Shown: positions 3,997-62,900, counted from the first letter of the stretch. The stretch: 64,000 nucleotides of DNA from Amoebophrya sp. A120 (GCA_905178155.1 CAJINV010000014.1:1691984-1755983); one strand, 5' to 3'. Numbers and translations: made by a program. The notes: generated by a model not told the origin, from the letters alone.

Positions 3997-6900
3997 CTAC
4001 AACGCTTCTCTTGGGCAAGCGATTTCATTTTTCCAAAAATGAAATACACCATTGCGTCCACCATCTTTATGCTTATCAGTACTGTCTTGGTCTCCTGCAG
4101 CAGGACTTTCTTCTGCTTTTACCTTCTGGAGGCACGATTGTTTCGTGTTCGAGCTCAACAAACCAGCGGCGAGGTCATTCTTCAACAACCTGTAGAAGTT
4201 TCTTTCCGGAATTTTTTCGACGACCTTCTCCCCATATTTTGCCTTCGCGTTGTCCACAGTATGCGTTAGAAATGCGTCTTCATCTGCTCGCGGTCTGGAA
4301 AGCTGTACTGAATGCAATTGCCGACTGCATCAAAACTGCGCAGCCAAGTTCCAGTATGGTAGGTTTTCATCCCCCGCCGCTTCCGGGGGCTCTGCCTCGG
4401 CAGCACCGCACCATAAAGATAGAAACTGAGTTTATTTTGCGTGACATGCGACTGCGAGCGGACAGTTGCTCTTCGTGGACTCGCAACAACTTCACAGAGC
4501 TCAGATTCCAATCAAGTGTACTAGACATCAATCAAAGGTACTCGATGCAGACTTCCAGACCTCGCAGATTTGGACACAAGAACATTTATTCCACTGCCTA
4601 CACGTCCACTTGGCGCAACAAGTGTATTGTCGGGTACGGTGCCCGGAGGACGTTATGAATCTGTCAGGATTGAAATCGTCAAAGTTGAAATGGTTTGTCA
4701 TGCATAAAATGCAAGGCATGAAGTGCCTGTCTTGCTGGGATGGCAAGTGAGGCAGATTGCGAGCCTATTTAGGGTTTGGGATAGAGCTGCTAAAGGAGCA
4801 TGACAAAAGCACCCTTCTGTGCCCAAACAGCATGACAAATTGGATTTCGGTACTCCACAAATTTGCCATGCGCAGCTTGGAAATTGGTCTTCCAAGAACT
4901 GGTATCCATTTTATGCATGGCAAATTATTTCAACTTTGTTGATTTCAAACCTGACGCTTCCATAGACGTAGTTCGGGCCGTAGTGGTCCTGGTCCTCGTC
5001 GTCAACGAAGGAAATCGTGTCTTCAGCATCTCCTCGTCCTGTCATGCGAGAGCACGACCCCCGCTCTCGGGAACTACTACTACACCTCCCGGTTTTATTG
5101 GTCGCAGTAGATGAGGAGTCTTGAATGAGGGAGCTGCCATCAAGTTTCTTCAACGAGGAGCCGAGTGCTGTGCTAGAAAAAGCAGCTTGGGCTTCGCGTT
5201 CTAGCAGTAGTTCCGCAGAAGCAGAAATATCCTGATTCAGCTGGAACGTGGCCATCTTTTGCTGCCGGGAAAAAAAGGGCGGCCTTCCCGCTATTGGTGG
5301 TGTTGTAGTCCTCCTTAAGAAGGTTCTCGTTGCAGTGGCCCCCGTGCCCTCTTCCTTCTCTTCTTGCTGTAGGTTATTCCTGCAGGAGCGCGAAGGCGCC
5401 ACTTCTTTTTCTAATGCGAGCCCACTGCCTCTGCCACAGGCCTCGCCCTGGTCCTCTCGTTGTATCCCTGGCCCACCATCATGCGCAGATGAAGGTGCTG
5501 CACGGCTGCGCTCTCGTGTCAGCACCGATCCTGCATCATGTCGAGAACAAGGAGGTCGACGCGGCCGACGGCAGCTTTTGCGTCCGTTCGACGAGTAGAA
5601 CCGCAGGACGTCAAGGTCACGCAAAGCAGAAGCTTTAGATTTAGTATTTTCAACACCAGCAGCTCGTTGATTTCCTCCTACCTCCACCCTGCTAGAAGCA
5701 AGCTCATCAAGAGTTTTCATTGCCTTGTAGTCCTCTCCATCAGCGGCCAGCAGAAGCCCCTCGCTGAGATCCAGCCCCGGTAACTGACCTCCGGCAGAAG
5801 TAGCTGCACCCCAGCTACAAGAAGCCTCATCCACGTGAAGATGCGGGTTGCTTTTTCTGCTAGGTTTGCTTCGCAGAAAAGCCTCTTCTTCGTTTGGACA
5901 GGATGGGTGGAGCACTTCTGCATTGCCGATCGAGCGAGTGCTCTTCATGTTGTGGCCTGCACTCGCAGTGGTCGTGTGCGGATTTTTTGTTTTCACCTCC
6001 TGGCTTTGGACCTTTTCCTCGACTTGCCGTGCCCGCGTCCAGTCGGCGTTTCCATGGCTGTAGACGTTGTCACCTCCTTTTCTACCACAGTCGAGCACAT
6101 AGTCCGCGCAGCTGTAGCCATTGTGCACCGCCTTCGGGTGAAACAGCACCAGTTGCACTGGCTTCTTGTTTCTTTCACTTTCGACGTCTGGAGGTGGAGG
6201 ACCCTTGCACGACGCAGAAGTGCCTGTCGTAGCGTTCGCGCGGCCGTTTCCAGTCGTGTACGTTGAATCACCGGCTGCAGAACGTGACTTCCCGTCTGCT
6301 CTGGCCGTCGAGAGTTGATTTAGCCCACGCCGGTCGTCCAAGAGCGCGACCATCTCCTCCACCTCCTCCTCAACGGCTTGCTCCAGGCACGACGCAGCAC
6401 GGTAGAAGTCGTAGTAGTCTTGGAGAAACTCAGCATTGGTCAGAACGATCAGGGTAGAGTGGAATAAATTCCTACCGCAGGCGGGGGACGGGGAGGATAC
6501 GGTGGAATTATCCCGTACTAGTAGTTCCTCTCGTCGTGATGTATAATCGTCAGCCAGAACTGCGCTCTTGTTACTTTCGAATTCGACAGGAGCCACGATA
6601 CCGCTGCTTGTCTGCTCCTCGAGGTGCAGCTTTTCACTCTCCTGTCCTCGAGGTGGTCCTCCCGGAAAATAAGATCCACGGCCGGCCGCGTTTTGGCCGA
6701 GTAGAGCACCACTATCTTCAAACAACTCCAACAGGCGCAGCTCTTGCTTCAGGAACTGACACAACTCAGCCACTGTGCTGCCGCCGAAAAGCGCGATCCG
6801 CAATTTCTGCCTGTCCACGAGAGGTTTGGCGAAGGGACAGATATTCTTCCCAATCACCCACTTTTCAACCCAGTTCCACGTGCGGCGGAGGGCAAGTTGA

Positions 6901-7424: not shown

Positions 7425-8166
7425 GCTCAGCTACATTTATTTTCCCTTTCTTTGACACTTCGCCTTATTGCAAAAGAAGATTCACATCAAAACTGGCGGG
7501 TAATGGACGAATGGCCGGGGCCGGCGCTGGAGATACAGTTATGCTGGGGCGCACGAGGATAAAAAAATGCAATGTAGTTCGGAGAACAAAGGGGTACTTA
7601 AAGTCAAACGCTGGCTATACGAGCTGCTCATCTTGTGCTATGTCATGATCGGACGAGAGAGTAGCATTTACACAGAGGAGCGGTAAACACGCCCGGGATG
7701 AAGTAGAGGATAAAACACAGTAGAAGTCGTCAGCACGCCAAGTTCTTCACTCAACAATATATTGTTTTCACATCGTGTTGATGCCAAAGGCAACGTCATC
7801 AACTCTACTTCCGAAGGTTGTAGGATCCATCAAAGTTGTTCCTCGTTCTTTTTGTTGATAGTACATGAGCAGCTGCACCAGCACGCCGCGCGCTAGTTGT
7901 GACTATATCGGACCACCACGACGAAATGCAAGAGCAAGACACGAATAGATGATCATGGATCACTTTGTTCCTAATCGTTCATTCATGTTTCGCTTTTTAC
8001 TTCGCGGACTGTTCTTCAGCGGAACCTCAACCTTTCGACGATGTTGTAGCTGAAAAAGAACATCTACATAGACAGCACTTATGAGGACCAAGAACAATAG
8101 AGATCTGTGTCCGAAGGCGACCGTTACTGAATTCTTCTCGATAGTAGACGTCACTACCGAGAGAGA

Positions 8167-10002: not shown

Positions 10003-13000
10003 TTATCGACCACCGCAATTTCCGGCACTCAGCCCGGCCGCGTCGCGAATGCCTGCGGGGCACATCAAGCATATGGAAGCGCTAGGTTAGTAGAAGTCCA
10101 CAAATAAGTAATTGGACAAACACAAATGATATACAACCTTCCCGAGGCACAGAGAAACTGTCTTGTGGAGCAGTCCGAAGTAAAGGCCGTCAGGTGAAGC
10201 CCGTACAAGGCGGGTACTTAGAAGTAGAAAGGACGTGTACCACGATACAAGAAGTCGTTTTTTGGCTTGGAGCACGCAAATCCATGACAAATTGGATTTG
10301 CGTGTATGAACGTGCAAAATGCAAAAGGGGTCAACCTAAACAGAGAAGCTTTTTCGTTGTTTGGGCAAAAAAGCTTTTCACTTTCGGGCGTATTTGCCGG
10401 CACCAGCTGCCCCTTCTCCGCGCGATATTGGATCGAGTTGCGCGTGTTAGGTTGCGCAAAAACAAGACTGGTTGTCGTGTTCCAGGTGGTCGCAGGCCTT
10501 GCGCAGTGCCACAGCTGGTGCGATCCTGCAGCGCGCATCTGCGTGTGGTGCGGGAACTTAAAGACGCAACTCGCTGGGCGGTTGGGATGACGCATCTCAC
10601 TCGTGGCGCGCCAGCTGTGCCTCTCAATCAAGTTAAGCGCGATGGCCACGGCAGTTGCATCAGCCTCCTGATCTGATTTTCGAAGCGCCCTCTCGCAGAG
10701 ACCGGCCAGCCCAATCTACCGCAAAGCAGCTCCAGCGAGCTCCCTTGCGGAGTTGCTCCGCGGGCTGCCGGGGAAATGTCCAGAGCTATTCTCGGACGCG
10801 AGCCAGAGTGCATCCACATGCGGAAAAGGGTTAATCCTGGCCCGGGGTTCGGACATCCCGGAGCTTGCCCGACACGATGTAGCAGAGGTCTCACCTCTCC
10901 CTTCCCCGTTCGCCGAAAGCCGCTCAATGAGAAGAATCTTCTCACTTTGGCGATTTTTTTGCCGGATTTTGCCAAAACTTCGCCAAATAAAATCCGGGTT
11001 TTTGGCGAAGTTTTGGCAAAACCCGGCAAAAAAATCCCCAAAGTCAGAAGCTTCTTCTCCTCGAGCGGCATTCGGCGAAGAAGGAAAGGAGGCGAGAAAT
11101 GTCGGCTCCAATGTGTCGCGCAAGCTCCGTGATCGGCGTGAGCCCCTGGCCAGGATAAGCGCCTTCCCACATGCGGATGCGACCTGTATTGTGTCCGGAG
11201 ATAATCCTGGACACTCTCAAGGAGCAATTTCGCGCGGGTGCTTTCTGGAATTGTTTTGCGGCAGACTGGGCGGCGCGGTCTCTGCGCATAGCATTTTCGA
11301 GTGTTAGCAAACGCTGGCGCGCCTCCAGCTGCCAGCTCCTTGAGAAACACAGTCGGCGCGCCTCGGCGGAGGTGTGTCACGCAAATCCATGACAAATTGG
11401 ATTTGCGTGCTCCAAAGATCATTTGATGTCCACACGCCCCGCTTAGAAATTAATTCGCGGTCCAACTGGATCGTGTTATGTGTTGCTTCTCCGTTCATTT
11501 GCAAATTTCCAACCCGACACTTCCATAGCGCACCACTCGTCTACTTCGCGTCGAAGATTGGTACACCGTTCCGCGTCAGGGTCTGCGAGTAAGCACGCTT
11601 CGTATGCATTGCAAGTATGTAGTTCGGGTCTAACAACTTTTGTCTTATACTAAAATGTCGATTTTTGCATGACCGACAAAGGCAGCGCCTTTTAGTCCTG
11701 TCGCACGAGGATAGTAGCGTGCGGCTTCTAGTCCGCACTACGTATTTCAGTATCAGATGAAAACGTTCGAAATTATAAAACTTGTCATGCTACTTCTTGG
11801 CTGCCGCTGCCCGCCTTCAAAAGAACTCAGAGTGTCTGAGTCTGACTGGTCCAAGCCCGGTCATCATTACAAGTTTCCAGTCCCGGACACATCTCCACTA
11901 GGTACTTCCTGCGCCGCCACGATGTTCGCACTTCCAAGGAGCACTGCTGCGCACCATATGCATTGCAAACATATTTTTTGGGGCTGGAAGTCCTCGCGCA
12001 AGACTAGTGTGAATAACACAAACTGTGACTCTACAAAAAATCACTGCAGAGGGGGGACGCGACGAGCTCTTCGTGGCCATGCATTACAGAGCTCTCCACA
12101 GTTGTCACACCAGGATGACAAAACATCTCGCGGCAATCTTCCAGACCGAGACACGTTTACTCCGGTTGATACGCCGTTGGTCCTTCAAAGTTGCTTTTCC
12201 AATCCAGGAAAAAACAACCATCCCCATCCATTTTTTGCATTACAAATAGTGGACTTTATGCATGTTTTGCATGACAAATTGGATGGGGATAGGTGTTTTT
12301 TCCTGGATATTTGCCCAAAAGTTTCCAAACCACGCATCCCGTTGAAAGGCATCCCCACTGGATGGTCGAACTGCAGGGAACTGCGCAATACAAATCTCGA
12401 AGATTTTCCTCCCTCGCTGTAGGTGTAGCGCAGGTTAGAAAGGACAAATGACGTCATGCTCATGTGCGATGTGCTATCTTCATATTCATCATTTCTGTAT
12501 ACTTACAACAATTTTTACACTCGCCAAAACGCGGCTAGAAGTGCCTGTGATGGGAATGTCATGTGTGTTGAAATTGTTCGTGTAAATGCAAATCTGCCTG
12601 ACGACTCTGGTGTGGGGGCCTCGTTTTTCATCAAGATACCATGCCATGGAGTTTTTGGAATTGGTGAAGTCCCTTCATCTAAATCAAAAATTCCCCCTCC
12701 GCATATTCCAAACGAATGCGACATACAATACCAAGGGACTACAGACAATAAATCCTAAAGATGAGCGTGGGTAAATCAGAATGTAAATGCTTAGGCATGG
12801 CGTCCTACTCCTAGCTTGGCAACTTGCTGTCCTTCGAGCCAAAGAGGATTTTTATAGGAATCGCCTGCATCCAGTAAATGCGGCGAAGACCACCTCAGAA
12901 GCCCCCTGTTTTCTTGAAAGACGGAGCTGATCATTTATTCTTGTGCACACAGATTACGCTCGGCAACACGATAAAGGACGCATATCAGTATGCCGAGCGG

Positions 13001-20829: not shown

Positions 20830-22841
20830 TCACAGACCGCCTTCCCCGGGCCCTCCCGCGGGCGGGGCGAGGCCTCCCCCTGTATCTCCCCCGCCACCTC
20901 CGATGATCCACCGGGCGTTGCAGTCTCGGGCAATGTGGCCCAGTTGTCCGCACAAATTGCAGGCCCGCATGTCGCTGTGCAAACCGCGCTCCGCGTCCCG
21001 GATCTTCACGAGGCGATTGTGCTGGGAAGCCCGATTTTGGCGAAATTTGTCCAGGTCGAGGTCGGTCAGCTTGTTCGCGGTCGCTAGCGAAGTTGTGGAT
21101 GAACCACCCGTAGACGTAGAGTTGTTATTTATGTCCGTGCCTAGTTGCTTCCGTGCTGGATCGGTACTGGAGCTGCCCCAAGGTGTCGCCAGATTCGGGC
21201 ACTCCTTGGCAAAGTGTCCCTTTTCGCCGCACCGGTGGCACCGCGGTCCCATGGGACACTGCCGGACGTAGTGCCCGTACTCCCCGCAGTGATGGCACTT
21301 GATGTTGCTGAAGTCGTTTTGTTGCGTGTACGCGGGGACTTGCATATGAGAAGGTGTTCCAGACGAGCCCCCTGCAGCGCCATCGTACTGGTCCATACGA
21401 AGCTTGCTGCGCGGATGAACACCTCCACCCGGCGCAGCTACACCTGATGAGAAAGACGAACCTCCGCGGCCCGCACTCCTCGATCTTGAGCGACTACGAG
21501 CGCGGAAAGTTCTGCCGGCGTAGTGTCCTCTGTGGTCTTGACTGTCTTCCGAATCTGAGCCACTGTTTTTCAGGTCTTTATCTAACAATTCCCGGTCGAT
21601 GGTAAGGAGAGACGCGTGTTGTAGTTCTTCGGAAGCTCCTGCAGCGGACGTTCTACTGTTTTGCTCTCGTTGTATTTCATCGTTGGTCCTCCCCCGGCCC
21701 GCGTCGTCGCGATTGTTATCTTCCTCATCATGATAGAAGGTCGCCCCTGTGCCACGACCTTTCTTTGCGGATGTGACCATCTGCAGAAACGTTCCGAACT
21801 CGTGCTCGATTTTCTCGTAGAAGTCCACCCGAACCTATCACAGTGCGTGGCAACATACAACTCAAACTCTCGACGTGCCTCAGTAGCATTATCTCATCAA
21901 CAAAGGCATACACAACCACATGAAATTGTGCTGCACCTGGACCAAAGTTGCCGCTTTTGCATGACAAATTTCCGCGGGGGGATTAGAGCGCTCTTTAGGC
22001 GACGGCGCCACTGGTGGTGCACACCAAACTCCCACACAACACTAGTCAATTTCTTGCATGGCAAGAAATGCTGAGGGCAAACGAGGAAATGAGCTGTACC
22101 GGTTGTGCACTGTGATAGACTCCGCCTCTCCAGCCGTCTGAGCCGGTTGCTTTTTGCAGGTATCAGGTAAGGAACGTCCGACTCTATGTTTTCTGCGGCG
22201 TAGTACGTCGGTTTTCCGATCTGCTTGATGATACTCGCCAGGTAACCGGGGGTGCTGATGGTTGGGTAAAAGACATGCTCTCGCGGTATGCTCGGCTTTT
22301 TCTCCTTATTTTTCCCACCGGAGGACGACACTGTGGCGCCGGTGCTTTCTGACTTGTGCAGGCAGTCCGCGCAGTAGTAGCGATTTGTGTACCCATCCAC
22401 GGTATCAAATGTAAAAGTGTCTGGGTCTGGAAGATTCTGAGATTTGTCATGCATGTATTGCATGACCCAGGATGTCTGTAATGCACGCCCGCGCATCACA
22501 GATTTTGAGAGGGCTTCCTGATGCCTACTCCGCATGACAAACGCCCTCCCCGCGTAGCACAAACTAGACTCCTCTTGCTGGTCATGCAATACAGATTTTG
22601 CTAGAGTCCAAAGTTAGCATGACAAGTTCCAATCTTCCAGACCCAGACATTTTTACATTTGATACACGGCACCGCTGAAAAAGGGAATCTGTTCGAACTC
22701 TTCCTGGGTAAAGGGTTGCTTCTCGGGAAACACTTCATACTTGCAACCGGCGCAAAGCCGGGATTTAGTGCTTTGTGTCGTAGAGGGGCCGCGGCGGTCG
22801 TGACGTTCGTCCCCTTTGGCCGCTGATGTTGGCGTAGCCAT
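20830..22841 (-). CDS. Zinc-finger / CCHC zinc-knuckle nucleic-acid-binding protein (~485 aa; 2 elements)
   Basis: Three CX2CX4HX4C knuckles (CHHCGEYGHYVRQC, CHRCGEKGHFAKEC, CNLCGQLGHIARDC), an RS-rich tract, and N-terminal CAGC...CADC joined by element removal; spliced length 1458 nt. Confidence 0.85.
21836..22117. mobile_element. TIR introner, family F-like (282 bp)
   Basis: tatcacagtgc TIR; flanks GAACC/GACTC; joins ERRS|RVDFYE. Confidence 0.85.
22403..22664. mobile_element. TIR introner, family D (262 bp)
   Basis: ~34-bp near-perfect TIR tatcaaatgtaaaa-tgtctgggtctggaagatt; perfect TSD CACGG; joins SGAV|DGYTN. Confidence 0.95.
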
Positions 22842-48800: not shown

Positions 48801-51037
48801 TTCCCGATCCGGACGATGATGAGCCGCTGCCCGAAGAAGAAGTGCCACTCGTCGCTGCAGCTCCCGCTGTTGCAAGCATCTTCTGAATCACCGGCGATTC
48901 GTTTTTCGACCTTTCCAACACAGTGGAAAAACAGATCCCAAAAGTCTGCAGCTCAGACGTCGATAGGTACTCACTATTATCACAATCGTGGCTGTGGAAC
49001 CAAGAAAACACCTTCAATCTGTTTGCGTTGGTGATGTCCAGCATTACCGCGTTTGGATCTGCCGCCGGGACGGAGCCGGCAAAGCCAGCCGGTGTGGTCG
49101 TCGTCGTCGCGGGGGCGTAGAGAACCGGGATTCCGAGCTGCTCAAGGAGGTAGGACCCGACCAGGTCCTTGTGGCAACTGTATCTTTTCTCCGGGTTGCA
49201 GACGTCTAGCAACGATTTGTACATCAAATGCGAGTACTCCAACTTCGCGTCATCCAGCGCCTCCGCTGCGATTGTCAACAAATAATCCGTCCGCATGCAA
49301 CTCCCCGTAACACTGCTCGCACACGTCGCGTTTGCCGGCGCGGGTTTCGGAGTAGCTTTTGGATCAGGTAAAAGCCCTGTTGGTAGAACCTCTCCGGCCG
49401 GAAGCAAGGTTTCGCAAATCGACGTTGTATCGTGACACAGATGTATTGATCTGTGCAGTGCCAGCGGCGTGTCCGGCGTCACGGGTCCGTAGCCGGTTGT
49501 TTGACTTTCTTGCGACTGCAGCAATTTCGTCTGCACGGTGACGTTCGTGTAGTTGAAAATCAACATTCCCCCCATCGCGGTCGCGAACTTCACCAACAAA
49601 CTGCTGGTCGCGAAATTCTGCTTCTGTTCGCTCACTGTCGCAGAAGCGACAACAGTGGTCGACGGTAGACTGTTTCCCTGCCCGAGATGCCCTACACCGG
49701 AGACGAAATAATTTCCGAACATATCCATTTGCTTCTTCACAGACACGATTTCTTTCAGCGTCACCGGGCCTTGCAAAGTCGGGATAAGGAAGGACTGCAC
49801 GTTCTGCAGCTCATGTTCCGTCATATCGTAGACACAATTCAACAATTCCTCGTATCCCTGACAAGTCCGGATCGCCTGCGCCAGCTGGATCCTCCCGCCA
49901 TTGTTCACGTCTTCCAACTCTCCGGTGGCCATTTTGGTATTGGTGATTTCTGTCGTCTTTGCTTTCACTGCCTGGAGCTGGCGTCTTTTGAAGTGTTCTA
50001 CTGAAAATTTTTGTGGTTCTTCATCCGCACTTTCGTACTCCACGGACACACTAGAACCTCCAACTACTGCAGCGCTTCCGCTTTCTCCTCCTGCTGCTGC
50101 ACTCCTGCTGCTTTCCAAGAGTCGCCTTCTTTCCCGGATAAACCCGGTGCTTTCTGTGCTCGTCTTTCCATCATCGGCGAGGAAAACCGGTTTGAAGTTT
50201 TTCGTGTACTCGTTCGCCAACAACCCAGAAATAAACGAAACCGCCGCCATCAGGACGATGACGACGAAAGTTAAGTACAGAATCTGGCGGAGGAAGATAC
50301 CCTCCCATCGAAGGCGTTTTTCCGCCTCGGCGGCGAGGGCTAGCTCGGAGACGGAAACGGCACCCGTGTTCTCCGGGTCCCAGAGCTTGAGGACGGTTTT
50401 TACCTGATAGATAAACAAAGGGAGAGTTGATAAGTCGTACAAGGGTCAATTACTACATGCACAGCTTCTAACATGCCACATCATGCACGATGCAAGTGGC
50501 GTTGGTGCTGGCGGGCCACAACCACGAGCCAACAGCAGCAAACGGAAACGCCGAGTATTTCTAGGAAAACCTGCGCGCATGTTATACCTTTTCTGGAAAG
50601 CTGTTGTAGTCCAAATCGGCGGAGTTGTTCTTCACAGCGAGTTTCATTTCCGCCAAGCGCTGCAACATTTCCTCTAGTTCTTCGCGATCCAACCCATCGC
50701 CATCTTCGTCCAATTTGTTCAAACTATCAACTGTAAAAGTGTCTGGGTCTGGAAGAATCCAACTTGTCATGCTGATTTTGGATTCTTTATTGCATGAGCA
50801 GCAAAGAGAGTCCAAGTTTTGCTACACGGAAAGAGCATCTGTCATGCGGTTGAGGCATCAGGAAGCCCTCACAAAATCTGTGATGCTAGGGCATGCATCA
50901 CAGACATCAGGAGTCTTCATGCAAAATGTGCATAACTGGCAATCTTCCAGACCCAGACATTTTTACATTTGATACAAACTGGACTTCAGCCATTCCGGAG
51001 CGTGCAGCTCCGCAATGTTCACCGCGGCTAAGGACAT
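36802..51037 (-). CDS. Giant EF-hand-like/Cys-rich single-pass membrane protein (~3590 aa; 14 TIR elements + 3 GT-AG introns)
   Basis: gccaccATG start at 51037; TM helix ILYLTFVVIVLMAAVSFISGLLA; loops DLDRNGYISEQEF, DVNNDQCLEQLEF and DPENTGAVSVSEL; GT-AG introns 50404-50587, 40506-40707 and ~39932-40220; spliced length 10767 nt is divisible by 3. Confidence 0.82.
37340..37555. mobile_element. TIR introner, family F (216 bp)
   Basis: Perfect 21-bp TIR tatgagagtgcacaactcccc; TSD TAGTC; joins YIET|TLGKQ. Confidence 0.95.
37603..37752. mobile_element. TIR introner, family B (150 bp)
   Basis: TSD TTAGC; joins NTLL|TMCYN. Confidence 0.93.
37805..37959. mobile_element. TIR introner, family C (155 bp)
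   Basis: Flanks TTGCA/TTGTA; reverse-orientation relative of 42578-42736; frame restored. Confidence 0.9.
37999..38149. mobile_element. TIR introner, family B (151 bp)
   Basis: TSD TGGTC; joins SPWT|SISNQW. Confidence 0.95.
38252..38405. mobile_element. TIR introner, family B-like (154 bp)
   Basis: Flanks GAAGT/GAACT; joins AAQF|AGSAT. Confidence 0.9.
38535..38714. mobile_element. TIR introner, family B-like, reversed orientation (180 bp)
   Basis: tatgcaatgcaaaag...tttgcaagggata; flanks GCTCC/GATCC; frame restored. Confidence 0.88.
38766..38927. mobile_element. TIR introner, family B (162 bp)
   Basis: TSD AATGC; joins FSRH|FTFYN. Confidence 0.95.
39033..39338. mobile_element. TIR introner, family A (306 bp)
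   Basis: Long TIR; TSD GGTCG; joins TNAT|LSADV. Confidence 0.95.
39397..39546. mobile_element. TIR introner, family B (150 bp)
   Basis: Flanks TGGAG/TGGCG; joins ATVA|TSPTS. Confidence 0.92.
42578..42736. mobile_element. TIR introner, family C (159 bp)
   Basis: aaatttcccgtaca TIR; TSD TTTGC; joins QQAQ|TLNPH. Confidence 0.95.
42958..43262. mobile_element. TIR introner, family A variant (305 bp)
   Basis: tatgaaa-cctcagaat TIR; TSD CAGCA; joins GSSAV|ITADM. Confidence 0.95.
43452..43687. mobile_element. TIR introner (236 bp) with tandem subterminal repeats
   Basis: ~40-bp TIR containing two ctcaactgttacat units; TSD CAACT; joins LTEL|ILTTY. Confidence 0.95.
46275..46424. mobile_element. TIR introner, family B (150 bp)
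   Basis: TSD TATGC; joins HLKH|TSVRNY, linking the 1347-aa and 872-aa ORFs. Confidence 0.95.
50725..50974. mobile_element. TIR introner, family D (250 bp)
   Basis: TSD CAAAC; joins LKSSL|NKLDED. Confidence 0.95.
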
Positions 51038-52119
51038 GGTGGCGCGTTATTATATCTACGCTGTATATAACACTCCACCTCCCGTTTGAAGCTGCTGCCT
51101 TCAAGAGCTAGCCGAGTAGTTCCTCAGTGGGGCCGCGGTCGGTCTCCTGTGTGAAATTCGACGACGGGCATATTCTTGGGCAGCTCCCCGCCCATTCTGA
51201 GCACCACGCGGCACACAGTCATTGCGACAACTTGGACGTCGGGCGATCGACCATCATCTTGCCACAACTTTTCAGCACCATAATACCTGGTGCTGTTTTT
51301 TTCGGCTGAGAAATACGAGCCAGGGAGCAGCAGCTGATTCTGTACTTAAGATGCCACTGCAAACACACTCGCGCACGCTCACTCAAGCTGGGTGGGTCAA
51401 CAACTCGCTGGCACCGGCACGCAAGCTGCTTGATAATATCCACCTCAGACTTCCTCGTGATTATTTCGCTCATGCATGCTGCTCCTCCCCCTGTTTAGAC
51501 GCTGGAATGAAGGTAATTCAATACCTTTTTGGAAAGAAAAACGCAACTCTCGTCAATGTGCTTGGGGGAACTCAGACGCAGCTGGAACTGAAGACCGATT
51601 GCGCCACCTGCACCTGCAACTCAGCTGAAGACCATCGAAGAAATCTCCTGTGTGCCGACAGGACGATGAAAAAATGAGAGTGGAATTCCATCTCGAAGAT
51701 GGTGCTACAAAAAAATCATTCAAGTGGATCTTTGCAGACAAGTCGCAACGGATATAAAAAAAAACTTTAGCAGGCCATGGTCTTTTTGAAGTGATGGCCG
51801 TCAGTCAGCGCAAGAACTTCTCCTTTACAGCTAGATCTTCCTACTGCTCTTCATCAAGAAATAAATCACCTCAACAATGATAATAAAAGAAGGTAGTTTT
51901 TTAGTGGTTTCTGGTTTCTCGCAGCTTCGCCTTCTTTTTGCTGGCTGCTAACTACCTGCTTACTTCCAGCAGCTTCGCTCCATCTTCAGTATCTACGGAT
52001 TGTTTCTCGACGACAGAATGGGTCTATGCGGAATGGAACTAGACGATCCTCCTCAGTGTATCATAGTGCACTAATCATATTGGGGTGCATATAGTGGGTC
52101 TCGAAGGTCTCTGCTTCCC

Positions 52120-53004: not shown

Positions 53005-53255
53005 AATTGGAGCCCAACCCTTCTGTCCGGCGTTGCTGTAGTGAAATTATCATGTTGGAGGGAAATGAAGATGGGATCAAAAGAAAACTATGTCCCAATG
53101 ATGATGAACAAGATTAAGATTATAACAGAGGCCACGCTTACTATGAAGTGCTTTTGAGTATTCGTTAACGCGAGAAATAGATCTTGGGCGACAGCATCGC
53201 AAAATAAAACCTTTCATCTTGTTCAAAAATTACATTCACGACTGCTCTGTACTGC

Positions 53256-56200
53256 TCACATTGCGAAAAGAACAAGAGACTCTTGAAGAGCTCGAAACTC
53301 AGAAAAGCAATACGGGTGCGTAAAGTCTCGGATTTCCCAGCGCACGAGGAAGATGTCCGTGCTCCCACCACCCAGGTCCGACTGTCCCGGCCAGGTGACC
53401 CAATACAGCGGAAAAGGCTTGCCCCACGACCGGCCATCTTCGAACGGCTTCAACTTCTCCGCCGAAGCCTGCATCTCCTGCAGAATAGTTAACGTGCGCG
53501 GCTGCAGAAAGACACCAAACAAACCGTCCTCAATTGCGTCCTCCAGCATCGGATAGCCCTTCATGGCCTCGCGGGATCTCCGGGGGTTTTCCCGTTCCGC
53601 AAATTCCCAGGAGCGCGTAGTGACATACGGCCGGAAATCCGCATACTCCCCCGGCTCGCGGTACTCCAGCAGATGCCAACTGCCATCAGGGTCTCGGACA
53701 TAGCGGCGCCCTTGCGCATGAAACACCTTCAGGTGGCTGCAGGTCTCCGTCAAGAAACGCGGATTGGCTGTATCAATGCGAAAAGCTAATGCTGTGGCGC
53801 CCTCCTGGCGGCCCGGAAGTTGACAAATCTAAATCACATACTGAAAAAGATCGCTCACACAAGTACAAAAAAATTTTCCTCGCAACTAAACTGCAAATCA
53901 AGAATATGCAAGCTCTGCGCCGGTGCTTGTTGATCCAAAGTGAACGAGAGCAATTATTGCCAGACACATCGAACAAAAAATATGCAAAGACCGAGAGCCG
54001 TGCTATGCCCATGTCCAGGGCGCCAGGAGTCCCACCAGACATCTCCTTCTTTTGATACGTTTCGGCAAACAAGGCGGCGTAGCCCTCTACTTTCTGCTGG
54101 CGTGCGGCGACTGCCTTCTGGTGCTCTGCGAGTTGGGTCGCGAGCTGCTTCCCAGAACTATCCATAAAATCCAACTCTGCCTTCATCGCGTTCATCTTGG
54201 AAACGTGTTGCGCTTTTCGTTGCCGCAGCTGCTCCCCCTGGTTCTTCTCCAAGCGCTCCAGCTCCGCTTCGCCGGCTTCGAGTCGCTCCTTCCGCTCACG
54301 CTGGCTGTTCGCTTGCTGCGCCACATCTGCAGTGAGGCGCGCGAGGTTTTCCTTTTGCTCTTCCAGAGGCTTTAAAAATTCCTCGAGCTCCCGTTGCTGC
54401 TGGACTTTTGCGCGGTACTGCTTGCGCACTTCCTCCAGCTTCTCTCTCTCCTCCAGGACCTCTCGGTGGACGGCGTCGAGCTGCATCTGCTCTTTCTTAT
54501 CGAGGAAAAAAAAGCCATCCACATCCATTATTTTGATGCTTTTTTACATAAAAAGACTAAACACGTTTTTCAAAAAAATTTCAGGTTTGTCAGGAATGGG
54601 CTCCAGCAAATATCCGCGCCAAAGTGATCTAGCCAAAGTGGCGCCATGATCAGGCGCACTAGGAAAGTATTAAATTAGCTAGGCCCAAAGCAGAACACTC
54701 GCCGCTCGTGGCGGGTCGCAGATTTCGCACAAGTCCTCCTCGCAGGCGCAGATCGCCGCCGGCCCCATACATGGGGCAAACGGGGGTCAACTTGGCGGGG
54801 CCATCCTTCTCCGGGTTCTGTACTTGGTCGCGCGGCGTATCTCCATTGGGCGTAGCTAGCTCAAAAACAAAATCGCTGAGCGATACTAGGCGCCATCGGC
54901 GCCACTAGCTAGCTGTATGAGTTAGATAGATTGCTTCACGTGCATCATGCGAGAAAAAAGTTAGAGGCGCTTTTTATTTTATTGCTGTTTTTTCGTGATT
55001 TTTTGCCCCAAAAAAAGTAGCAAAGTGAATGCGGATTGGTTTTTTTTTCCTGGATATTTCTCGATCTTCTTATACAGCTTCTCGCTCTGCTGGTCTCGGG
55101 CCTTCTGCCGGTGGGCCATGTCTTTTTCGATCTCCTTGCTGGCTTTCTCTGCCTCGATGCGCTTCTTTTTCACCTCCTCCCGCGTGGCCGTCAGCAACGC
55201 CTCCTCCTTAGCGGTTTCCGCGTCGATGGTCTTTCGAATCTCGTCAAGGTGCGCCTTTGCCTTATTTCCATGCGCCAACTTTTTCTCGGTGAGGAGTTTC
55301 GTAAGCCGGGTTTTGTCCTCTTCCACATCTCTCTCGTACTTGGCCTGCATCTCCTTCTCCTTTTTCGCCTTCTTGTCGGCGAGCTTAGCCGCGAAGGCTT
55401 GCTTCAGCTCGGCGTATTTTTTGTTCGCTTTCGCCTTCTGCTGCTTCGTCAGCTGCGCGAGCACCTCGTCGAAGGTCCACTTCTTGTCCTTGCGGTGTCC
55501 TCTTCGGGCCGGGGCGTTGGGTTCCTGCGCGACGTTAAGATCCTCCTCTTCGTCCGGTAGGAGCCGCTCGCCCTCGCTGTCGGTCGAGCCGGTTTCGATG
55601 TAGTGCTCATCCTATCAAATGCAAAAGCTTGGAACTTGTGATGCTGTCTCTGGATTCGAAAAAAATTTGTATTGCGTGACCAGTGAGAGGAGTAGATTTT
55701 GTGCTCCGCGGAGATGGCATGTGTCCTGCGAAGTAGGCATGACGAGGAAGCGCTCTAAAAATCTGTGATGCTAGGCCATACATTCCAGGCATTATGGATC
55801 ATGCAAAATATGCATGACAAGTCTTGCAATCTCACAGACCCAGACATTTTTGCATTTGATACATCCTCCGCAAACAACTCGTTGTCGCCCACCGTTTCCT
55901 CCTCATCGATGACGATCAGAGCCTCCAGCTTTTTATCCTTCGCCCGCTCCGCCGCCTCCTTTGCCCGCAGCCGCGCCTCCTGCTCCAACCGGATCCGCTC
56001 CTCTGCTTCTTCTTGTTCCGCCTTCGCGATCATTTTTTCCACAAACGGAAGCAGCGCCACCGTGCCCCCCGGAAACTCGCGGCGGACGACTCGCAGCGTG
56101 AACAACTCCGCGGCTTCCCACATCGCTTGCGTCAGCGCTTTTGCACTCATTCCGTGCTGGGAGGCGTAGCGCCGCCAGAACGCCTTCGTCTTCTCCTCCA

Positions 56201-58776
56201 GGGCCGCGAGGTCCAGGTCGTCACCGGGTTCCAAGTCCATCTCAAGGTCGAAGTAGTCGGCGTGGTCCTTGTCCAGATCGCAGCTTTCCACGTCCCGTCG
56301 CCTTCTGCGCGGCTCTTCTTGAGCAGGAGCTGGGGCCTGTTCTACTTGCCGAGCTTCTACGTCCACCACCAGCCCGATGTCATGATCTCGTTCCAACTTC
56401 TGCTGTTGTTGTTGTTCCAAAAGCGGTTTATTATTCCCGATCGCTCCTTGTCCTTCTGCAGCTTGCGCAAACTCCATTCCCGACCGGGGACTTCTGATCT
56501 TCAGGGGTCGCCCTGAGGATGCACCTCCGACCGCTGGCGAAGACCTTTCGGCTAAGCGTGGCCCTGCTTGTTCGCCAGTCTGCTCTTTCTGCTCTCCGGA
56601 AGCGGATTCTTCCGGCGACGGGTCGTAGTGGAACGCGGGCGGAACCTATCCTGAGAAAAAAGTGCTACAGCTACACACTGTGACGCTGCAGACCAAGCAA
56701 AAGAGACAACCTCCGTCAACATCATGCAGGATAGGCGTACTAGAAGCCTTGTTTCATACGTGTTTTACCTTAAGATCTCCACCGCATTGCAAGCTTTCTC
56801 TCTCAGGCACAGAACATTCGTGATGCTGAAACTCCAAAAAACGTATGGCTGTAGCACTTTTTTTCTTGCATAGAACCGCCTGGCCCTTTTCCTCGTTCTC
56901 GTCCACGACGCGCTGATTCGGCGTTCGGGCCCCGTCATCGTCCGAGTTGTACCCGAGGAGCTCCTCTCCGTGAAACAAGTCTCCGCGGCCTTCGTCCTCG
57001 TTTGCTTTACTTCTTTTCCCGCCCTCGGGAGTCAAATTCGCAACGTCATCAAATATAGACATACCTCCTGGCCCCATGCCCATCATGTCATCAATTATAG
57101 ACACACCTCCCGGAAAATCGTCATCGCTATCCCGGTATCCTGAGAAAGAACGTCCACAACCGACTAAATCTGTCATGCAAATTGGAACTATCTGCATGGG
57201 CATCATGCTACTCATGGACGTCTCTCATGCACAGCTGCCGCTGCATGAGAAGCATTTTGAAAATGCTATATAAGGGCATATAATGAAAATTCCACTATCA
57301 TACTTATGAGGGCATCTCGCAATTAGTCACACAGTTTCAACTTGTTCCAATACATAGGGTTCAGGACAAGGTGCGCAATTTGTATGCTCGTATTTGTGCT
57401 GCATCGTAATGCATAGCCAAGAACGACTAATGCACTACGTATGTCATGCTGATGCGAAGTTCACAAGCACAAAGCTTCTGGATTCATTTAGCTAGCGTGA
57501 TGAAAAAAGGGCGCCGACGTTTTTACACAGGATACGTCAACAATAATTTCATTCTCGCTTTCGGATGCAGAGACCTGGTTACTTTTATCCCGGCTCGGTG
57601 CCGCTGCTCTGCTCGCTGCGCGTGCCGCCGACATTTGCTGGCTCCGTAGCTGCTGCTCGGTCATGAAAAGCTCCTGGTCGTAGCAAAATTTTGCGAAGTG
57701 CGCCGCATGGGTATTCGGCGCACTGTCCTTGTCCCTTTTCGCGGCTGGCTGGAAGCCTGCGGCCGGAGCTGCAGACGAAGAAGCTGCACGGTTGAAAATG
57801 TTCGCACTGCTCGAGGAAGACGCTGCTCTGTCGGCCTTTGCCTGGACAGCCGCCGGGTTGAAGTTGAAGTTGGCCAACTTCGACCGCTTCTTTTCTTTTT
57901 TCCCCTCCTCCGCATAGTCGTCTTCGCTGTCATCGCCGACATTATTCAGACCGAGATCGATACTCCGCGATGCTTTGTCGTTGCTGTGGTCCTGTCGAAA
58001 GATGATATGCGCGTCGTCTTTGCTTTTTCCCTCCATCCGGCGCCACTGCTTGCCCTGGTGCAGCCGGTCCAGGAAGGACTCGATCTTGATCATGTTGCCT
58101 TGATTCTGGATGTGCTCCCACAAGCGGGCGTCTTCGTGCTTCAGCGCTAGTCGTTTGCACAGTTTGAATTTGTGCCGGTCCTGTACGTCAATTTTTCGGT
58201 AGATCACCCGACCGGAGCCGTCGCTTTTGATCCGGGCCAAAAAACGATGGGACACGGAACCTGTGCCGTCACCGAAACGCGCGCACCTGTAGTAGTGTTC
58301 GAGCCGTTCGATTTTGGATGAAAGCGCAAACGCATGATACACTTTTCATGATCACGAGGAGAGGAATCTTCAGAACCAGCTGCGACTGAAAATAGTGAGA
58401 GTGACAGCGTCGCAGACAATGAGATTTCCACACGCGTGCTCTATTTCGATACTACGGCTACGGACATCGCGAGAAAAATTCAAATTGGTACTATGTTGGG
58501 CGGACTGTTCTAGTTATTATCTCATATAATTCGAACGCGTAAGCGTAACGAATCTACTGAAGGAGGCTCTAAGTAGTACAAGTTGTGGACGACGATCCAG
58601 TCCGTGTAGCCTCCGAAGGACACCCGGGAGCCGCGGTTGATGGGCTTGACGCTCCTCCTTTTCCTGAGGCCCATCGGGCGCCTCCTCCGCCCCGCTCCAG
58701 CACCCTCGACGGCGGAGTCCGACGTGTAAGCGTCATCGGAGGAAGATGACTCCGCAACAGCTGGTCGCTTTGACAT
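53256..58776 (-). CDS. Hypothetical acidic/coiled-coil protein (~1160 aa; 5 TIR elements + 1 decayed non-canonical intron ~58289-58578)
   Basis: Seven ORF pieces chain in frame; spliced length 3492 nt; long K/E-rich heptad regions. Confidence 0.75.
53771..54057. mobile_element. Decayed TIR introner, family D-like
   Basis: tatcaa...ccagacatctccttcttttgata; flanks GGCTG/CGTTT; joins FAET|NPRFL. Confidence 0.72.
54498..55056. mobile_element. TIR introner (559 bp), ends like 12201-12309
   Basis: tatc-aggaaaaaaaa-cca TIR; TSD TTTCT; joins KIEK|EQMQL. Confidence 0.92.
55613..55861. mobile_element. TIR introner, family D (249 bp)
   Basis: TSD CATCC; joins FAED|EHYIE. Confidence 0.94.
56647..56872. 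mobile_element. TIR introner (226 bp)
   Basis: gaaaaaagtgctacagc TIR; TSD GAACC; joins GQAV|PPAFH. Confidence 0.93.
57136..57534. mobile_element. TIR introner, family E, TSD decayed (399 bp)
   Basis: tatcctg-g-aa-aacgtc TIR; flanks CCCGG/CGTCA; removal of element+5 nt joins IIVD|DSDDDF. Confidence 0.75.
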
Positions 58777-59918: not shown

Positions 59919-62900
59919 TTACACCGCCCTAACCAGCATCCTACTCTGCTTCGCCTTCAACCTGGCGTTCTGCAACCGCAGCGGATGTCCTCGCTTTTTC
60001 AACAACCCACACACCCGCGCTTGCTTGCACACCGCAGTCGGCCGGTCCGCGATGTGGGGCTCGAAGCACTCGACGTAGCAACTCTCCGGGATCGTCATGA
60101 TTTCCTCTTTTTCCAACAGACTGTGCGTGATGTTGTTTGTCAGGTAGCTAGTTGGCAGCACCGTGTTCATCAAAACTTCCCGTGTCCCGCCAACCAACCC
60201 GTTCTGGATTTTCTTCAACAATTTCAAAATCGTCTGCTCGCTGTTTAGCTCCGCGGTGTAGTACAAAACGGCGATGAGGTATGGGAGTGTCAGGTTTGAA
60301 ATCGTCAGAGTTGAAATGATTTGTCATGCATAAAATGCGATACAAAAACTGACTCTATTGCAGAGGACGCACGGGAGGCAGAGTATAGTCCTGGTAAGGG
60401 TCAAGCGTTGGACTGCTGACTAGCATGACAGAAGGCAGCTCCTTTGCCCTAAACCGGATGACAGACTCGCTTCCAGGACCGGGAAAATTTGTCATGCGAC
60501 GACTACAACTGTAGGTCTAACTGGTATCCGTTTTATGCATCGCAAATCATTTCAACTTTGACGATTTCAATCCTGACAGTTCCATATGAGGCACTTGGCT
60601 AATTCCTCATTGTCGTTCAGCCCGTCACTATCCAGATCCGTGCTGTCTATGGCGGCGTCCGCAATCTCCGTGGTTCCCCCCTGCGTCTTCACGTCCACGA
60701 TTTTCGCGCACTTTCCCGCCCAATCAAACTCCGTGCCGAAGTTGGGCATGGAGTTCAGAAATTGGTGATTCGACAACTCCTCAACGACGGTTCGGAGTTG
60801 TTGGAATTCGTTTGCTGTGAATTCGGCTTCCATCATGGCGGTGACATTTTTCAAGTTCACCTGCTCGGACATTGCATTCGTCGTTGACCCGTAGAGGTTC
60901 GTCAGTTCCGAATTCGTATCATCCGCAATGTTGTTGCCGCCGATCACAAGCATTTCGCGTTTCTTGAATTCCAACCTGTATTTGCAATCGAGCCCTGCCC
61001 GCTTCAAATTGTTCTTGTTCTTCTTCGACAAAGTTGGGAGCAGCATCGCTTCGTAGAACAACCTGCAGGAAGTAGACGCTGCGTCAGAATTATGTTGCGC
61101 AGAGCCTGTTGTTGAACTTGAAGTTGAGACTAGGCCTGTTGTACTGAACAACCCCTTCATAAACTCCACCTCCAATGGGAAGGTCGGCGTCCCGCCAACG
61201 GCTGCTAATGCAAGGTTGAAATTATACCACTGGATGGAGTAGGCGTCCATGTCCTTCTGCAGCAGTCCCATCGCGTTCTGCTTCGCCTCCCTGACCGCGG
61301 ATCGCATCAACAGTTTGTCGAACACGAAGTTGTTCATTTGCCTTATCTTATCCTGCTTCATCTTCTGTTTTCGGCACAGCGCGGGGTAATAGACTTTCTT
61401 CGCCCCGGAATTGTGGTAAAACTCCTTGTTCGAAGCCTTCGCGTTCGTTATGGACACCGTGTTCGTGTCCGCCGCTCCGTCGTCGTTCACGTCTTCGATC
61501 AAAACTAAATCGGACTCGATCCCATCCTCCGCAAGGCTGTCGCAGTCGAAGGTGTCCTCTATGAAGACGTCCACGCACCCAGTCGACCTTTTGTCGAAGA
61601 AGTTGAATAACACCGCCAGGTCCTCTTCGGGCAAGAAGTAATCCGACTTGGTCTTGTCGCATTTCTCGTGATCCAAGCAATTCGTGCTTCTTTCGTTCAA
61701 CCGCATGAGGAGTGAATTTTTCGCCTGCACTAACTCCGACTGGGATAACTTCGGTGGCTGGGTCTGGGTGCCGGTGGAGCTGGTGTAGACCTTCAAATCC
61801 TGAATGTCATCGATAAACGCGTCGGCAAGTTTGTCTTCCTGGTTGCTAGCAGAAATCGCCAAATCGAACATCCCCAGCAGTTGTTTACTGTTCTTCGCGG
61901 ATTTCTGCAGTAATTCCCTCTGCACAAACAGTTTGAACTTCTCGAAAGACAATTGCCAGGGTAAGCAGCCGCTGGACTTGAGAAAATAGCAGTCGTGTTT
62001 GTTGTAGAACGGGTGGTTTTTGGGCAACGCCTGCAAGTTTCCCGCCCCGTTCAATTCCGAGGGAATGATGGTGTCTTTTGTTCCGAGCTTTCGACCACGC
62101 AATAATGGGCCGTCGATGTGGAGGATTTGGTTCGTGTCGGACAGACGGCAGACGGGCTCAGGGTTGTAGTTTCTCCCGATACTGGTAGCTCCTTCAACCG
62201 TGGTTTTTGAAACAACTGCTGTTGGGAAGAAATCCAGTTGCAGCATCGCTTTTTCCGCGCAAGATCTTTCCACGCAGTTCATCACGTCGGGGATGCAGGA
62301 TTGGAGCACTTTCTCACTCGGTTCGCAAATTTTCTTCTCCCCAGGAGAAGACAAAAATCCCGCAAACACCTTTGGTAGCTCAAACAGCATCTCCGAGACG
62401 CAGAACGCAACCAATTCGTCGTCACTACTCGTCAACCGGTCCGGGTGCGCCGCACCGGCGGAGGTTTGCGCGGTTTTTGTGGTTTTCTTCACATAGGAAA
62501 TCGAATAGTAAGAGGACGCTTGGGTGATGGGGTAGGCGGTGGTGTTTCGTGCGTCGTTTTCTAGTGAGTCCAACATGGTTATGGCTTTGGATAAAGCGAT
62601 GGTCGCGTTAGAGCAGTGGGTGGCCAGGTTGGTGAATCTCTGCAGCTCGTCGTGGTAAAAAAAGTTCAGCGATCCGTGGGTTTCCCGTTGAAGAGTGGTC
62701 GGGGCGGTGGCCTGGATAGTTTACTTCTGTTGGTTCCACTAGTACGAGTTGTGATTGTGCAGTTTTGTTTTTTCGTACAAAAAACGGCACAACTAAAAGG
62801 AAAAAACATCAAACCAGCAGCAGGGACGAAATTTTGTTCTGTAACTGTATGTTGTCACTTCACAACTCTATACCATTTTTCCATCGATCTCTGCCATCTC

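What the first reader, a model, noticed from the sequence alone, without database searches (positions are those of the whole stretch)
4260..60586. 44 MITE-like elements inside coding exons follow one precise-removal rule: element + 5 nt
Seen: at least 44 elements from six or more sequence families have TAT...ATA ends, TIRs and 5-bp flanking duplications of unconstrained sequence (23 perfect). In every case, deleting the element plus one 5-bp copy rejoins the reading frame, and whole-gene spliced lengths come out divisible by 3 (e.g. 4230, 10767, 3492, 1458 nt). Known: introner elements with inverted and direct repeats forming non-canonical introns have been reported in Amoebophrya genomes, so the class itself is not new. 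Inference: these are non-autonomous DNA transposons made scarless by a dedicated removal system whose mechanism is, to my knowledge, unresolved.
Basis: partly seen in the sequence, partly recalled or inferred. Interest (0 to 1): 0.92.

Follow-up and report, generated by a model that had tools for sequence, protein, structure and literature searches.

The report
Transposon introns cut at fixed register
Fifty small hairpin-shaped transposon copies sit inside the genes of a parasitic dinoflagellate and are missing from its transcripts and annotated proteins, cut at the same spacing wherever it can be read (1 base before, 4 bases after the hairpin), likely by a relaxed spliceosome; the element class is already published, but I did not find the fixed spacing stated, and it makes the unknown splicing mechanism testable.

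Summary
Observation confirmed. The window matches Amoebophrya sp. A120 (two exons 100% identical to labelled proteins). Removal of element+5 is supported by three exact length sums over 14 elements in transcript-like contigs, by 25 junctions in two annotated proteins and by reading frame only for 11. These are the published A120 introner elements (Farhat 2021: TAT inverted repeats, 3-5-nt direct repeats, mechanism open; Gozashti 2025: one family 'Ginger, 5-bp TSD, TA/TA'). Added here: imperfect duplications place the cut at one register, intron = N + TAT...ATA + 4 nt; only it reproduces both proteins without mismatch (other registers 4-17), whereas Farhat's legend calls splice sites variable. 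All 5 GT-AG introns mapped here start GTAT/GTAC, so a spliceosome relaxed at +1 and at AG is my best guess (0.5); a Euglena-like separate system is the main rival (0.3). One long copy holds a weak integrase zinc-finger remnant. The scan noted similar element+TSD removal in another dinoflagellate genome (unchecked).

The parts
   Evidence: frame only, +4 and +5 tie
4260..4600 (-). element 341 nt, TAG..ATA, TSD 3/5
   Evidence: frame only
4654..4964 (-). element 311 nt, 305-315-nt family, perfect TSD
   Evidence: frame only
10072..11527 (-). long element 1456 nt, TAT..ATA, TSD 3/5, internal inverted duplication 10694-11286; junction allows only register 4
   Evidence: protein P0002
10086..10673 (+). 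196-codon stop-free frame inside the long element with weak integrase zinc-finger (PF17921) similarity
   Evidence: below Pfam cut-off, lead only
11603..11904 (-). element 302 nt, TAC..ATA, TSD 4/5
   Evidence: P0002
11957..12171 (-). element 215 nt, TSD 3/5; register >=4
   Evidence: P0002
12201..12309 (-). element 109 nt, TAT..ATT, TSD 4/5
   Evidence: P0002
12335..12638 (-). element 304 nt, TAT..ATG, TSD 4/5
   Evidence: P0002
12676..13021 (-). decayed element 346 nt, TAT..ATG, TSD 2/5
   Evidence: P0002
13304..13683 (-). element 380 nt, TTC..ATA, TSD 3/5; GT-AG at register 4
   Evidence: P0002
13925..14048 (-). element 124 nt, 150-nt family, perfect TSD
   Evidence: P0002
14332..14646 (-). 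element 315 nt, 305-315-nt family, perfect TSD
   Evidence: P0002
14707..14998 (-). element 292 nt, TSD 4/5; register >=3
   Evidence: P0002
15589..16342 (-). element 754 nt, TAG..ATA, perfect TSD, nested inverted-repeat insert near 15804-16150
   Evidence: P0002
16374..16683 (-). element 310 nt, TSD 3/5; register >=2
   Evidence: P0002
16865..17191 (-). element 327 nt, TSD 4/5; register <=4
   Evidence: P0002
17227..17654 (-). element 428 nt, TSD 4/5
   Evidence: P0002
18022..18276 (-). element 255 nt, perfect TSD
   Evidence: P0002
21836..22117 (-). element 282 nt, TSD 3/5, in zinc-knuckle gene
   Evidence: frame only
22403..22664 (-). element 262 nt, high-copy family, perfect TSD
   Evidence: frame only, weak
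25080..25491 (-). GT-AG intron 412 nt starting GTAT, with a 4/5 five-base repeat in the same register
25632..26035 (-). element 404 nt, TAC..ATA, TSD 2/5; register >=2
   Evidence: P0001
26083..26341 (-). element 259 nt, perfect TSD
   Evidence: P0001
26937..27198 (-). element 262 nt, TSD 3/5; register 1-4
   Evidence: P0001
28286..28651 (-). element 366 nt, TSD 4/5
   Evidence: P0001
29278..29614 (-). decayed element 337 nt, TAT..ACA, TSD 1/5; junction allows only register 4
   Evidence: P0001
29731..30070 (-). element 340 nt, TAC..ATA, TSD 1/5; register >=4
   Evidence: P0001
30205..30417 (-). element 213 nt, TSD 4/5; register >=4
   Evidence: P0001
30587..30845 (-). element 259 nt, perfect TSD
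   Evidence: P0001
32508..32938 (-). element 431 nt, TAC..ATA, perfect TSD
   Evidence: P0001
33482..33837 (-). element 356 nt, TSD 2/5; register >=4
   Evidence: P0001
37340..37555 (-). element 216 nt, perfect TSD
   Evidence: (RNA sum 2160)
37603..37752 (-). element 150 nt, perfect TSD
   Evidence: (RNA sum 2160)
37805..37959 (-). element 155 nt, TSD 4/5, opposite orientation to its relative 42578
37999..38149 (-). element 151 nt, perfect TSD
38252..38405 (-). element 154 nt, TSD 4/5
38535..38714 (-). element 180 nt, TSD 4/5
38766..38927 (-). element 162 nt, perfect TSD
39033..39338 (-). element 306 nt, perfect TSD
39397..39546 (-). element 150 nt, TSD 4/5
39932..40220 (-). GT-AG intron 289 nt starting GTAT
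40506..40707 (-). GT-AG intron 202 nt starting GTAC
42578..42736 (-). element 159 nt, perfect TSD
   Evidence: RNA sum 715
42958..43262 (-). element 305 nt, perfect TSD
   Evidence: RNA sum 715
43452..43687 (-). element 236 nt, perfect TSD; site reads as empty in relative P0003
46275..46424 (-). element 150 nt, perfect TSD
   Evidence: frame between 1338- and 898-codon exons
50404..50587 (-). GT-AG intron 184 nt starting GTAT
50725..50974 (-). element 250 nt, perfect TSD
   Evidence: homologue P0008 ungapped across junction
53036..53313 (-). GT-AG intron 278 nt starting GTAT
53771..54057 (-). element 287 nt, TSD 2/5; RNA contig allows register 3-4
   Evidence: (RNA sum 856)
54498..55056 (-). 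element 559 nt, perfect TSD
   Evidence: RNA sum 856
55613..55861 (-). element 249 nt, perfect TSD
   Evidence: frame only
56647..56872 (-). element 226 nt, perfect TSD
   Evidence: frame only
57136..57534 (-). element 399 nt, TSD 1/5
   Evidence: frame only
60280..60586 (-). element 307 nt, perfect TSD
   Evidence: frame only

Best explanation
These are the TAT...ATA introner elements of Amoebophrya A120, present in DNA with 5-bp target duplications and absent from transcripts and annotated proteins as element plus 5 nt, cut 1 nt before the first TAT and 4 nt after the last ATA wherever the junction can be read, likely by the ordinary spliceosome relaxed at +1 and at the 3' AG. Shown: copies, duplications, removal length, register. 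Inferred: insertion by a retroviral-integrase-like (Ginger-type) transposase making a 5-bp staggered cut; because 1+4=5 the splice drops exactly one duplication's worth and restores the empty site. Inferred: N-U-A-U/C is read as the donor, like the GUAU/GUAC of the GT-AG introns here; the terminal stem brings the ends together in place of U1; the acceptor is chosen by distance (4 nt) from AUA, whose first A (-7) may be the branch nucleotide (weak).
For: Register 4 reproduces P0002 (1336 aa, 15 introns) and P0001 (2213 aa, 11 introns) with 0 mismatches; registers 0,1,2,3,5 give 17, 13, 9, 6, 4; unique at 10072 and 29278; RNA contig at 53771 allows 3-4; at 30205 and 33482 an aligner's pull to AG or GT would have given 3, yet the protein needs >=4. 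At that register +2 is T in 50 of 50, +3 A in 49, +4 T/C in 48; 5 of 5 GT-AG introns start GTAT or GTAC; 13304 is itself GT-AG and 25080-25491 is a GT-AG intron with a 4/5 repeat in the same register. A120 keeps U2, U4, U5, U6 and 83 of 89 spliceosomal proteins, lacks U1, and 15% of its canonical introns have the same repeat layout (PMC7789003 passages). Ends predicted to pair (>=8 pairs) in 41 of 49 elements vs 3 of 49 exon controls. Precedent: Fritillaria MITE introns spliced by an adapted spliceosome (review PMC11282704).
Against: Only 1 of 50 introns is GT-AG at register 4 and the 3' dinucleotide is unconstrained. Relatives occur in both orientations (37805 vs 42578 in one transcript; 27 vs 11 in other loci), so no strand-specific internal signal is needed. 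Donor and putative branch A lie inside a predicted stem. TAT/ATA conservation is also expected from transposase demands. The -7 A asymmetry (0 changes vs 7 at its partner +4) did not replicate in 124 oriented elements of the other assembly (1 vs 1, including one -7 G). 8 of 49 elements lack a predicted terminal stem yet several are removed in register (12676, 14707, 29731, 30205). No lariat, knock-down or raw-read data; the register rests mainly on annotation-derived proteins.
Confidence: 0.5

Rival explanations
1. A separate, non-spliceosomal system (structure-reading nuclease plus ligase, or back-splicing to a circle) recognises the terminal stem and cuts at fixed spacers N1 and N4, as inferred for Euglena nonconventional introns (N3 and N5-6).
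For: No AG, free +1, orientation independence; stem in 41 of 49; tolerates inserts to 1456 nt; Euglena code 5'-N3CDG/CH'G N5-6 is genetically shown and authors favour non-spliceosomal factors (PMC12501133 abstract and Discussion); euglenid introns leave as circles (review PMC11282704).
Against: The element donor matches the GTAT/GTAC of 5 of 5 canonical introns and intermediates exist; decayed copies without a predicted stem still splice in register; no such enzyme is identified.
Confidence: 0.3
2. The removal length is fixed at +5 but the cut position inside the duplication varies, and the single register is an alignment artefact of the gene annotation.
For: Farhat's Fig. [quoted passage not shown]
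Against: At mismatched duplications placement is not free; 12 protein junctions and one RNA contig exclude register 1 and none excludes 4; two go against canonical pull; chance under a uniform register about 1e-5.
Confidence: 0.12
3. The elements are excised from DNA in some cells or stages (ciliate IES-like or transposase-mediated), so transcripts merely copy a cleaned template.
For: TIR transposon anatomy; run X1 is only guessed to be RNA.
Against: Run X5 has flat depth 21-33 and contigs run unbroken through elements and GT-AG introns (39512-43019, 50951-54754), while X1 lacks elements and GT-AG introns on the same records and varies in depth by gene; a 1+4 cut has transcript polarity.
Confidence: 0.05
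4. The elements self-splice as ribozymes.
For: Strong predicted terminal stems.
Against: 38 unrelated sequence clusters of 109-1456 nt with no shared core beyond the ends and a 10-nt motif; both orientations work.
Confidence: 0.03

Closest known systems
Introner elements / non-canonical introns of Amoebophrya sp. A120 (Farhat et al. 2021, PMC7789003; seen: abstract, passages, sections 11, 16, 25, supplement legends and Tables S4, S5, S7 passages; figures not seen)
   Same: Same organism label; inverted repeats starting TAT, direct repeats at the boundaries (5-bp example in legend S19), MITE-like, RNA-supported removal, mechanism open.
   Different: Paper gives direct repeats of 3-5 nt varying in length and position, splice sites variable relative to the hairpin and no transposase in A120; here every checked element fits one 5-bp duplication and one register (1 + element + 4), and one long copy has a weak integrase remnant.
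A120 introner families in Gozashti et al. 2025 (PMC12130899; seen: passages and all 58 A120 rows of Dataset S2; supplement files 13-14 not searched)
   Same: Mostly TIR DNA; family 38 'Ginger, 5-bp TSD, TA/TA termini' with Copia/Gypsy-like ORFs; TSD 5 in 7 of 58 rows counting that note.
   Different: Automated TSD calls range 2-11 or none, splice mechanism labels differ by family, no common register; family 65 is called Mutator with 8-9-bp TSD, so +5 is not universal in the genome.
Euglena nonconventional introns (PMC12501133; seen: abstract, Discussion)
   Same: MITE-like, paired terminal triplets, free boundary dinucleotides, fixed spacers from stem to cut.
   Different: CAG/CTG with N3 and N5-6 versus TAT/ATA with N1 and N4; genetically tested there, not here; unrelated lineage.
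Ginger2/TDD DNA transposons (PMC2836005; seen: passages)
   Same: TIRs, 4-5-bp TSD, H2C2 zinc finger plus DDE integrase.
   Different: Ginger termini are TGTNR, here TAT; no DDE domain detected here.
Spliceosomal MITE introners of Micromonas, Aureococcus, Symbiodiniaceae and Fritillaria (PMC9860276, PMC11282704; seen: passages)
   Same: Splice sites co-opted from the TSD so that mRNA length is unchanged.
   Different: Those need GT/GC and AG or a specific target; here any 5-mer is tolerated.

Membership tests
Amoebophrya A120 introner elements (Farhat 2021) | Located in the A120 genome | tested here: met
   Two exons 100% identical to proteins labelled Amoebophrya sp. A120
Amoebophrya A120 introner elements (Farhat 2021) | Terminal inverted repeat starting TAT | tested here: met
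   TAT at the 5' end in 43 of 50, ATA at the 3' end in 46 of 50
Amoebophrya A120 introner elements (Farhat 2021) | 3-5-nt direct repeat at the exon-intron boundaries | tested here: met
   5-bp repeat perfect in 24 of 50, >=4/5 in 36 of 50; 45 of 47 in another assembly
Amoebophrya A120 introner elements (Farhat 2021) | Removed from transcripts with non-GT-AG ends | tested here: met
   3 of 3 exact sums over 14 elements; 49 of 50 non-GT-AG at register 4
Amoebophrya A120 introner elements (Farhat 2021) | Repeated, in families | tested here: met
   4 clusters with 16 members in the window; summed contig depth over element bins up to 180,000 vs about 30 on exons
MITE (non-autonomous TIR DNA transposon) | Short, TIR, TSD, no transposase | tested here: met
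   109-754 nt for 49 of 50; TIR and TSD above; Pfam was scanned only on frames of the 1456-nt copy
MITE (non-autonomous TIR DNA transposon) | Empty site in a relative | tested here: inconclusive
   One case: P0003 contiguous across 43452 with another element nearby; its DNA was not seen
Ginger2/TDD transposons | TGTNR termini | tested here: not met
   Termini are TAT(G/C) versus TGTNR
Ginger2/TDD transposons | 4-5-bp TSD | tested here: met
Ginger2/TDD transposons | H2C2 plus DDE integrase in an autonomous copy | tested here: inconclusive
   PF17921 E 0.0065-0.036, below cut-off; Atlas 0.82-0.84; no rve hit; no PDB hit
U2-type spliceosomal introns | GT/GC-AG ends | tested here: not met
   1 of 50 at register 4; 8 of 50 have any GT/GC/GA-AG or AT-AC placement
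U2-type spliceosomal introns | Lariat through a branch A; dependence on U2/U5/U6 | not testable with these tools
   -7 A in 50 of 50 and 123 of 124 is only a hint
Euglenid-type nonconventional introns | CAG/CTG paired motif at N3 and N5-6 | tested here: not met
   TAT/ATA at N1 and N4
Euglenid-type nonconventional introns | Release as full-length circles | not testable with these tools
   No raw reads of this strain covered exons

The most novel reading that the evidence does not exclude
Most introns of Amoebophrya A120 obey one splice code, N|UAU...AUA-N4|, read by a U1-less spliceosome that uses the transposon's own inverted repeat as a ruler and the A at -7 as branch point, so that any insertion of a TAT-ended, integrase-mobilised transposon at any 5-mer and in either orientation is instantly a perfect intron; the 1456-nt copy at 10072-11527 is a decayed relic of the mobilising element.
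Probability: 0.25. Interest if true: 0.85.

Novelty: already known. Interest (0 to 1): 0.5.

Why it matters
About two thirds of A120 introns are non-canonical and their splicing is an open question (PMC7789003). A single register turns 'highly variable splice motifs' into one code (NT...ATA-N4) with a free +1 and no AG, predicts the exact junction of tens of thousands of introns, would fix gene models, and names the positions (+2 U, -7 A, the 1- and 4-nt spacers) to probe in lariat/circle sequencing. It parallels the spacer code shown in Euglena, suggesting convergent answers to MITE invasion.

Tried and rejected
No whole genome was held, so no genome-wide count or transposase search. No listed holder was on record as RNA. 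Raw-read runs X8 and X9 covered no exon, only element look-alikes, so no read-level junction. The joints table was filled by repeat contigs of X5; RNA evidence comes from piece coordinates of X1, and RNA was laid only on 36700-56600. The annotated proteins of gene E (no hit) and gene A (only a 93% relative and distant homologues) were not obtained, so 4 imperfect duplications in gene A and 57136 give no register. Canonical splicing by sliding within the duplication: possible for 8 of 50 only, rejected. Removal of +2 or +8 (same frame): excluded by RNA sums and protein lengths. Farhat Table S4 (9 of 9 predominant A120 motifs have T at +2) looked like support for register 4, but 8 of 9 also have A at -2 and Dataset S2 shows the same symmetry, so I treat it as aligner placement, not evidence. 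Branch-A asymmetry did not replicate. Automated frame test is noisy: 15 of 17 at strict and 37 of 74 at loose settings in other loci; 17 of 21 in the window, the 4 misses on the non-coding strand. Long TAT..ATA candidates in the 62 loci: L022 1547-2930 has no ORF over 186 codons and was not scanned against Pfam; L023 is an ordinary copy with a changed end. Atlas search of the putative integrase core gave nothing. No earlier notes on this genome.

Full report
Observation. A scan for TAT...ATA pairs with inverted repeats gave 59 candidates, 20 with a perfect 5-bp flanking duplication, against none in 10 dinucleotide shuffles. All lie in minus-strand coding sequence. They fall into 4 clusters (16 copies) and 34 singletons. 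One family, sought in a metagenome collection, gave 62 loci in which 45 of 47 complete copies have a perfect 5-bp duplication of free sequence.

Organism and prior art. Two exons are 100% identical to proteins labelled Amoebophrya sp. A120. Farhat et al. 2021 (PMC7789003; abstract, passages, sections 11, 16, 25 and supplement passages seen; figures not seen) describe 29,850 introner elements in A120 with inverted repeats starting TAT and direct repeats of 3-5 nt, note the MITE likeness, find no transposase and no U1, and leave splicing open; the Fig. 3 legend calls splice sites variable relative to the hairpin. Gozashti et al. 2025 (PMC12130899; passages and all 58 A120 rows of Dataset S2) label family 38 'Ginger, 5-bp TSD, TA/TA termini'; other rows give TSDs of 2-11 or none. 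Seven literature searches and passages of PMC9860276, PMC11282704 and PMC11453091 showed no statement of a single register; Roy et al. 2023 was not read, and unseen figures S19-S25 of Farhat may show it.

Removal from RNA. On 36700-56600, run X1 (RNA by guess; depth varies by gene, lacks GT-AG introns) has a 7670-nt record whose pieces imply 715 nt removed from 42573-43687 and 2160 nt from 37335-40705, and a 3031-nt record with 856 nt removed from 53767-55056. These equal (236+305+159)+15, nine elements +5 each (1669) plus GT-AG introns of 202 and 289, and (559+287)+10. Sums could hide compensating errors, but three are exact. Run X5 is flat at depth 21-33 and runs through elements, so DNA keeps them. 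Two annotated proteins, built from transcript alignments, give 25 further junctions, all element+5; five decayed boundaries were placed with the protein in hand. The remaining 11 rest on frame, three weakly.

Where the cut falls. With a perfect duplication six cut positions are equivalent; with mismatches the product tells which. Keeping four bases of the upstream copy reproduces P0002 (1336 aa) and P0001 (2213 aa) with no mismatch; registers 0, 1, 2, 3 and 5 give 17, 13, 9, 6 and 4. Two junctions allow only 4, and the RNA contig at 53771 allows 3-4. Using only elements delimited without help from the proteins (10072, 16865, 26937, 29731, 30205, 33482, 53771) still pins 4. So intron = 1 nt + TAT...ATA + 4 nt. 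Ends are then NT...NN; 1 of 50 is GT-AG. Published end spectra are symmetrical (T at +2 68-71%, A at -2 65-69%) and reflect aligner placement, so they neither support nor refute this. All genes here are on one strand, and 15 of 16 informative junctions are annotation-derived.

Mechanism. Insertion (inferred): a transposase making 5-bp staggered cuts; a shared subterminal 10-mer (73 of 80 hits in elements), an apparently empty site in relative P0003, a weak integrase zinc-finger frame in the 1456-nt copy (not confirmed) and family 38 point to an integrase-like enzyme, though TAT ends fail the Ginger TGTNR test. Removal (inferred): 5 of 5 GT-AG introns start GTAT/GTAC, the elements start N-TAT/TAC, intermediates exist, and A120 keeps U2, U4, U5 and U6, so I favour a spliceosome relaxed at +1 and AG with the terminal stem (predicted in 41 of 49 vs 3 of 49 controls) and a 4-nt ruler defining the acceptor (0.5). 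Against: both orientations work, the signals are buried in a stem, and the hint that A at -7 is specially conserved (0 vs 7 changes in the window) did not replicate in 124 oriented copies elsewhere (1 vs 1). A Euglena-like separate system with fixed spacers (PMC12501133; abstract and Discussion) is the main rival (0.3); alignment artefact 0.12; DNA excision 0.05; self-splicing 0.03.

Verdict. Real, and a member of a published class in the published genome: already known. The new content is the single register and the donor-like 5' end, which make the open splicing question directly testable by lariat versus circle sequencing. Two unchecked notes of this scan report element-plus-duplication removal without splice signals in another dinoflagellate genome. 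Interest 0.5.

Noticed in passing
window 10086-10673 (+): Frame inside the 1456-nt element with weak integrase zinc-finger similarity (Pfam E 0.0065-0.036; Atlas hits PF17921/rve at 0.82-0.84); possible decayed transposase, antisense to the host gene.
   Followed up: partly
window 10694-11286: About 600-nt imperfect palindrome (73% self-complementary) inside the long element, plus two copies of a 32-nt hairpin at 10273 and 11378.
   Followed up: partly
window, all elements: Shared subterminal motif GCATGACAAA: 73 of 80 matches (<=1 mismatch) fall in elements, which cover 24% of the window; present in 34 of 50 elements across unrelated families, suggesting one mobilising protein.
   Followed up: partly
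window 15804-16150: Nested inverted-repeat insert of another type inside element 15589-16342; the whole 759 nt is removed in P0002.
   Followed up: no
P0003 versus window 43452-43687: A 93%-identical relative lacks this element but has a 150-nt-family element four codons downstream: independent insertions in two strains.
   Followed up: partly
window 37340-39546: Nine elements in 2.2 kb separated by exons of only 34-124 nt, next to element-free exons of 2.6 and 4 kb in the same gene.
   Followed up: no
window 36700-51037 (-): 3588-aa predicted protein with an EF-hand and a homologue family of large unnamed proteins (P0006-P0011).
   Followed up: no
window 35713-35814: Three tandem copies of a 34-nt unit in an intergenic stretch.
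   Followed up: no
window 8143-8215 and 9695-9735: A stretch of about 45 nt is repeated 1.5 kb apart near a plus-strand gene (read).
   Followed up: no
L022 1547-2930: 1384-nt TAT..ATA element with perfect 5-bp duplication and no long ORF.
   Followed up: partly
L001 2873-3123 and L023 1428-1689: Copies with perfect duplications but a changed -7 (G) or +2 (A) inside long reading frames: natural tests of which terminal bases matter.
   Followed up: no
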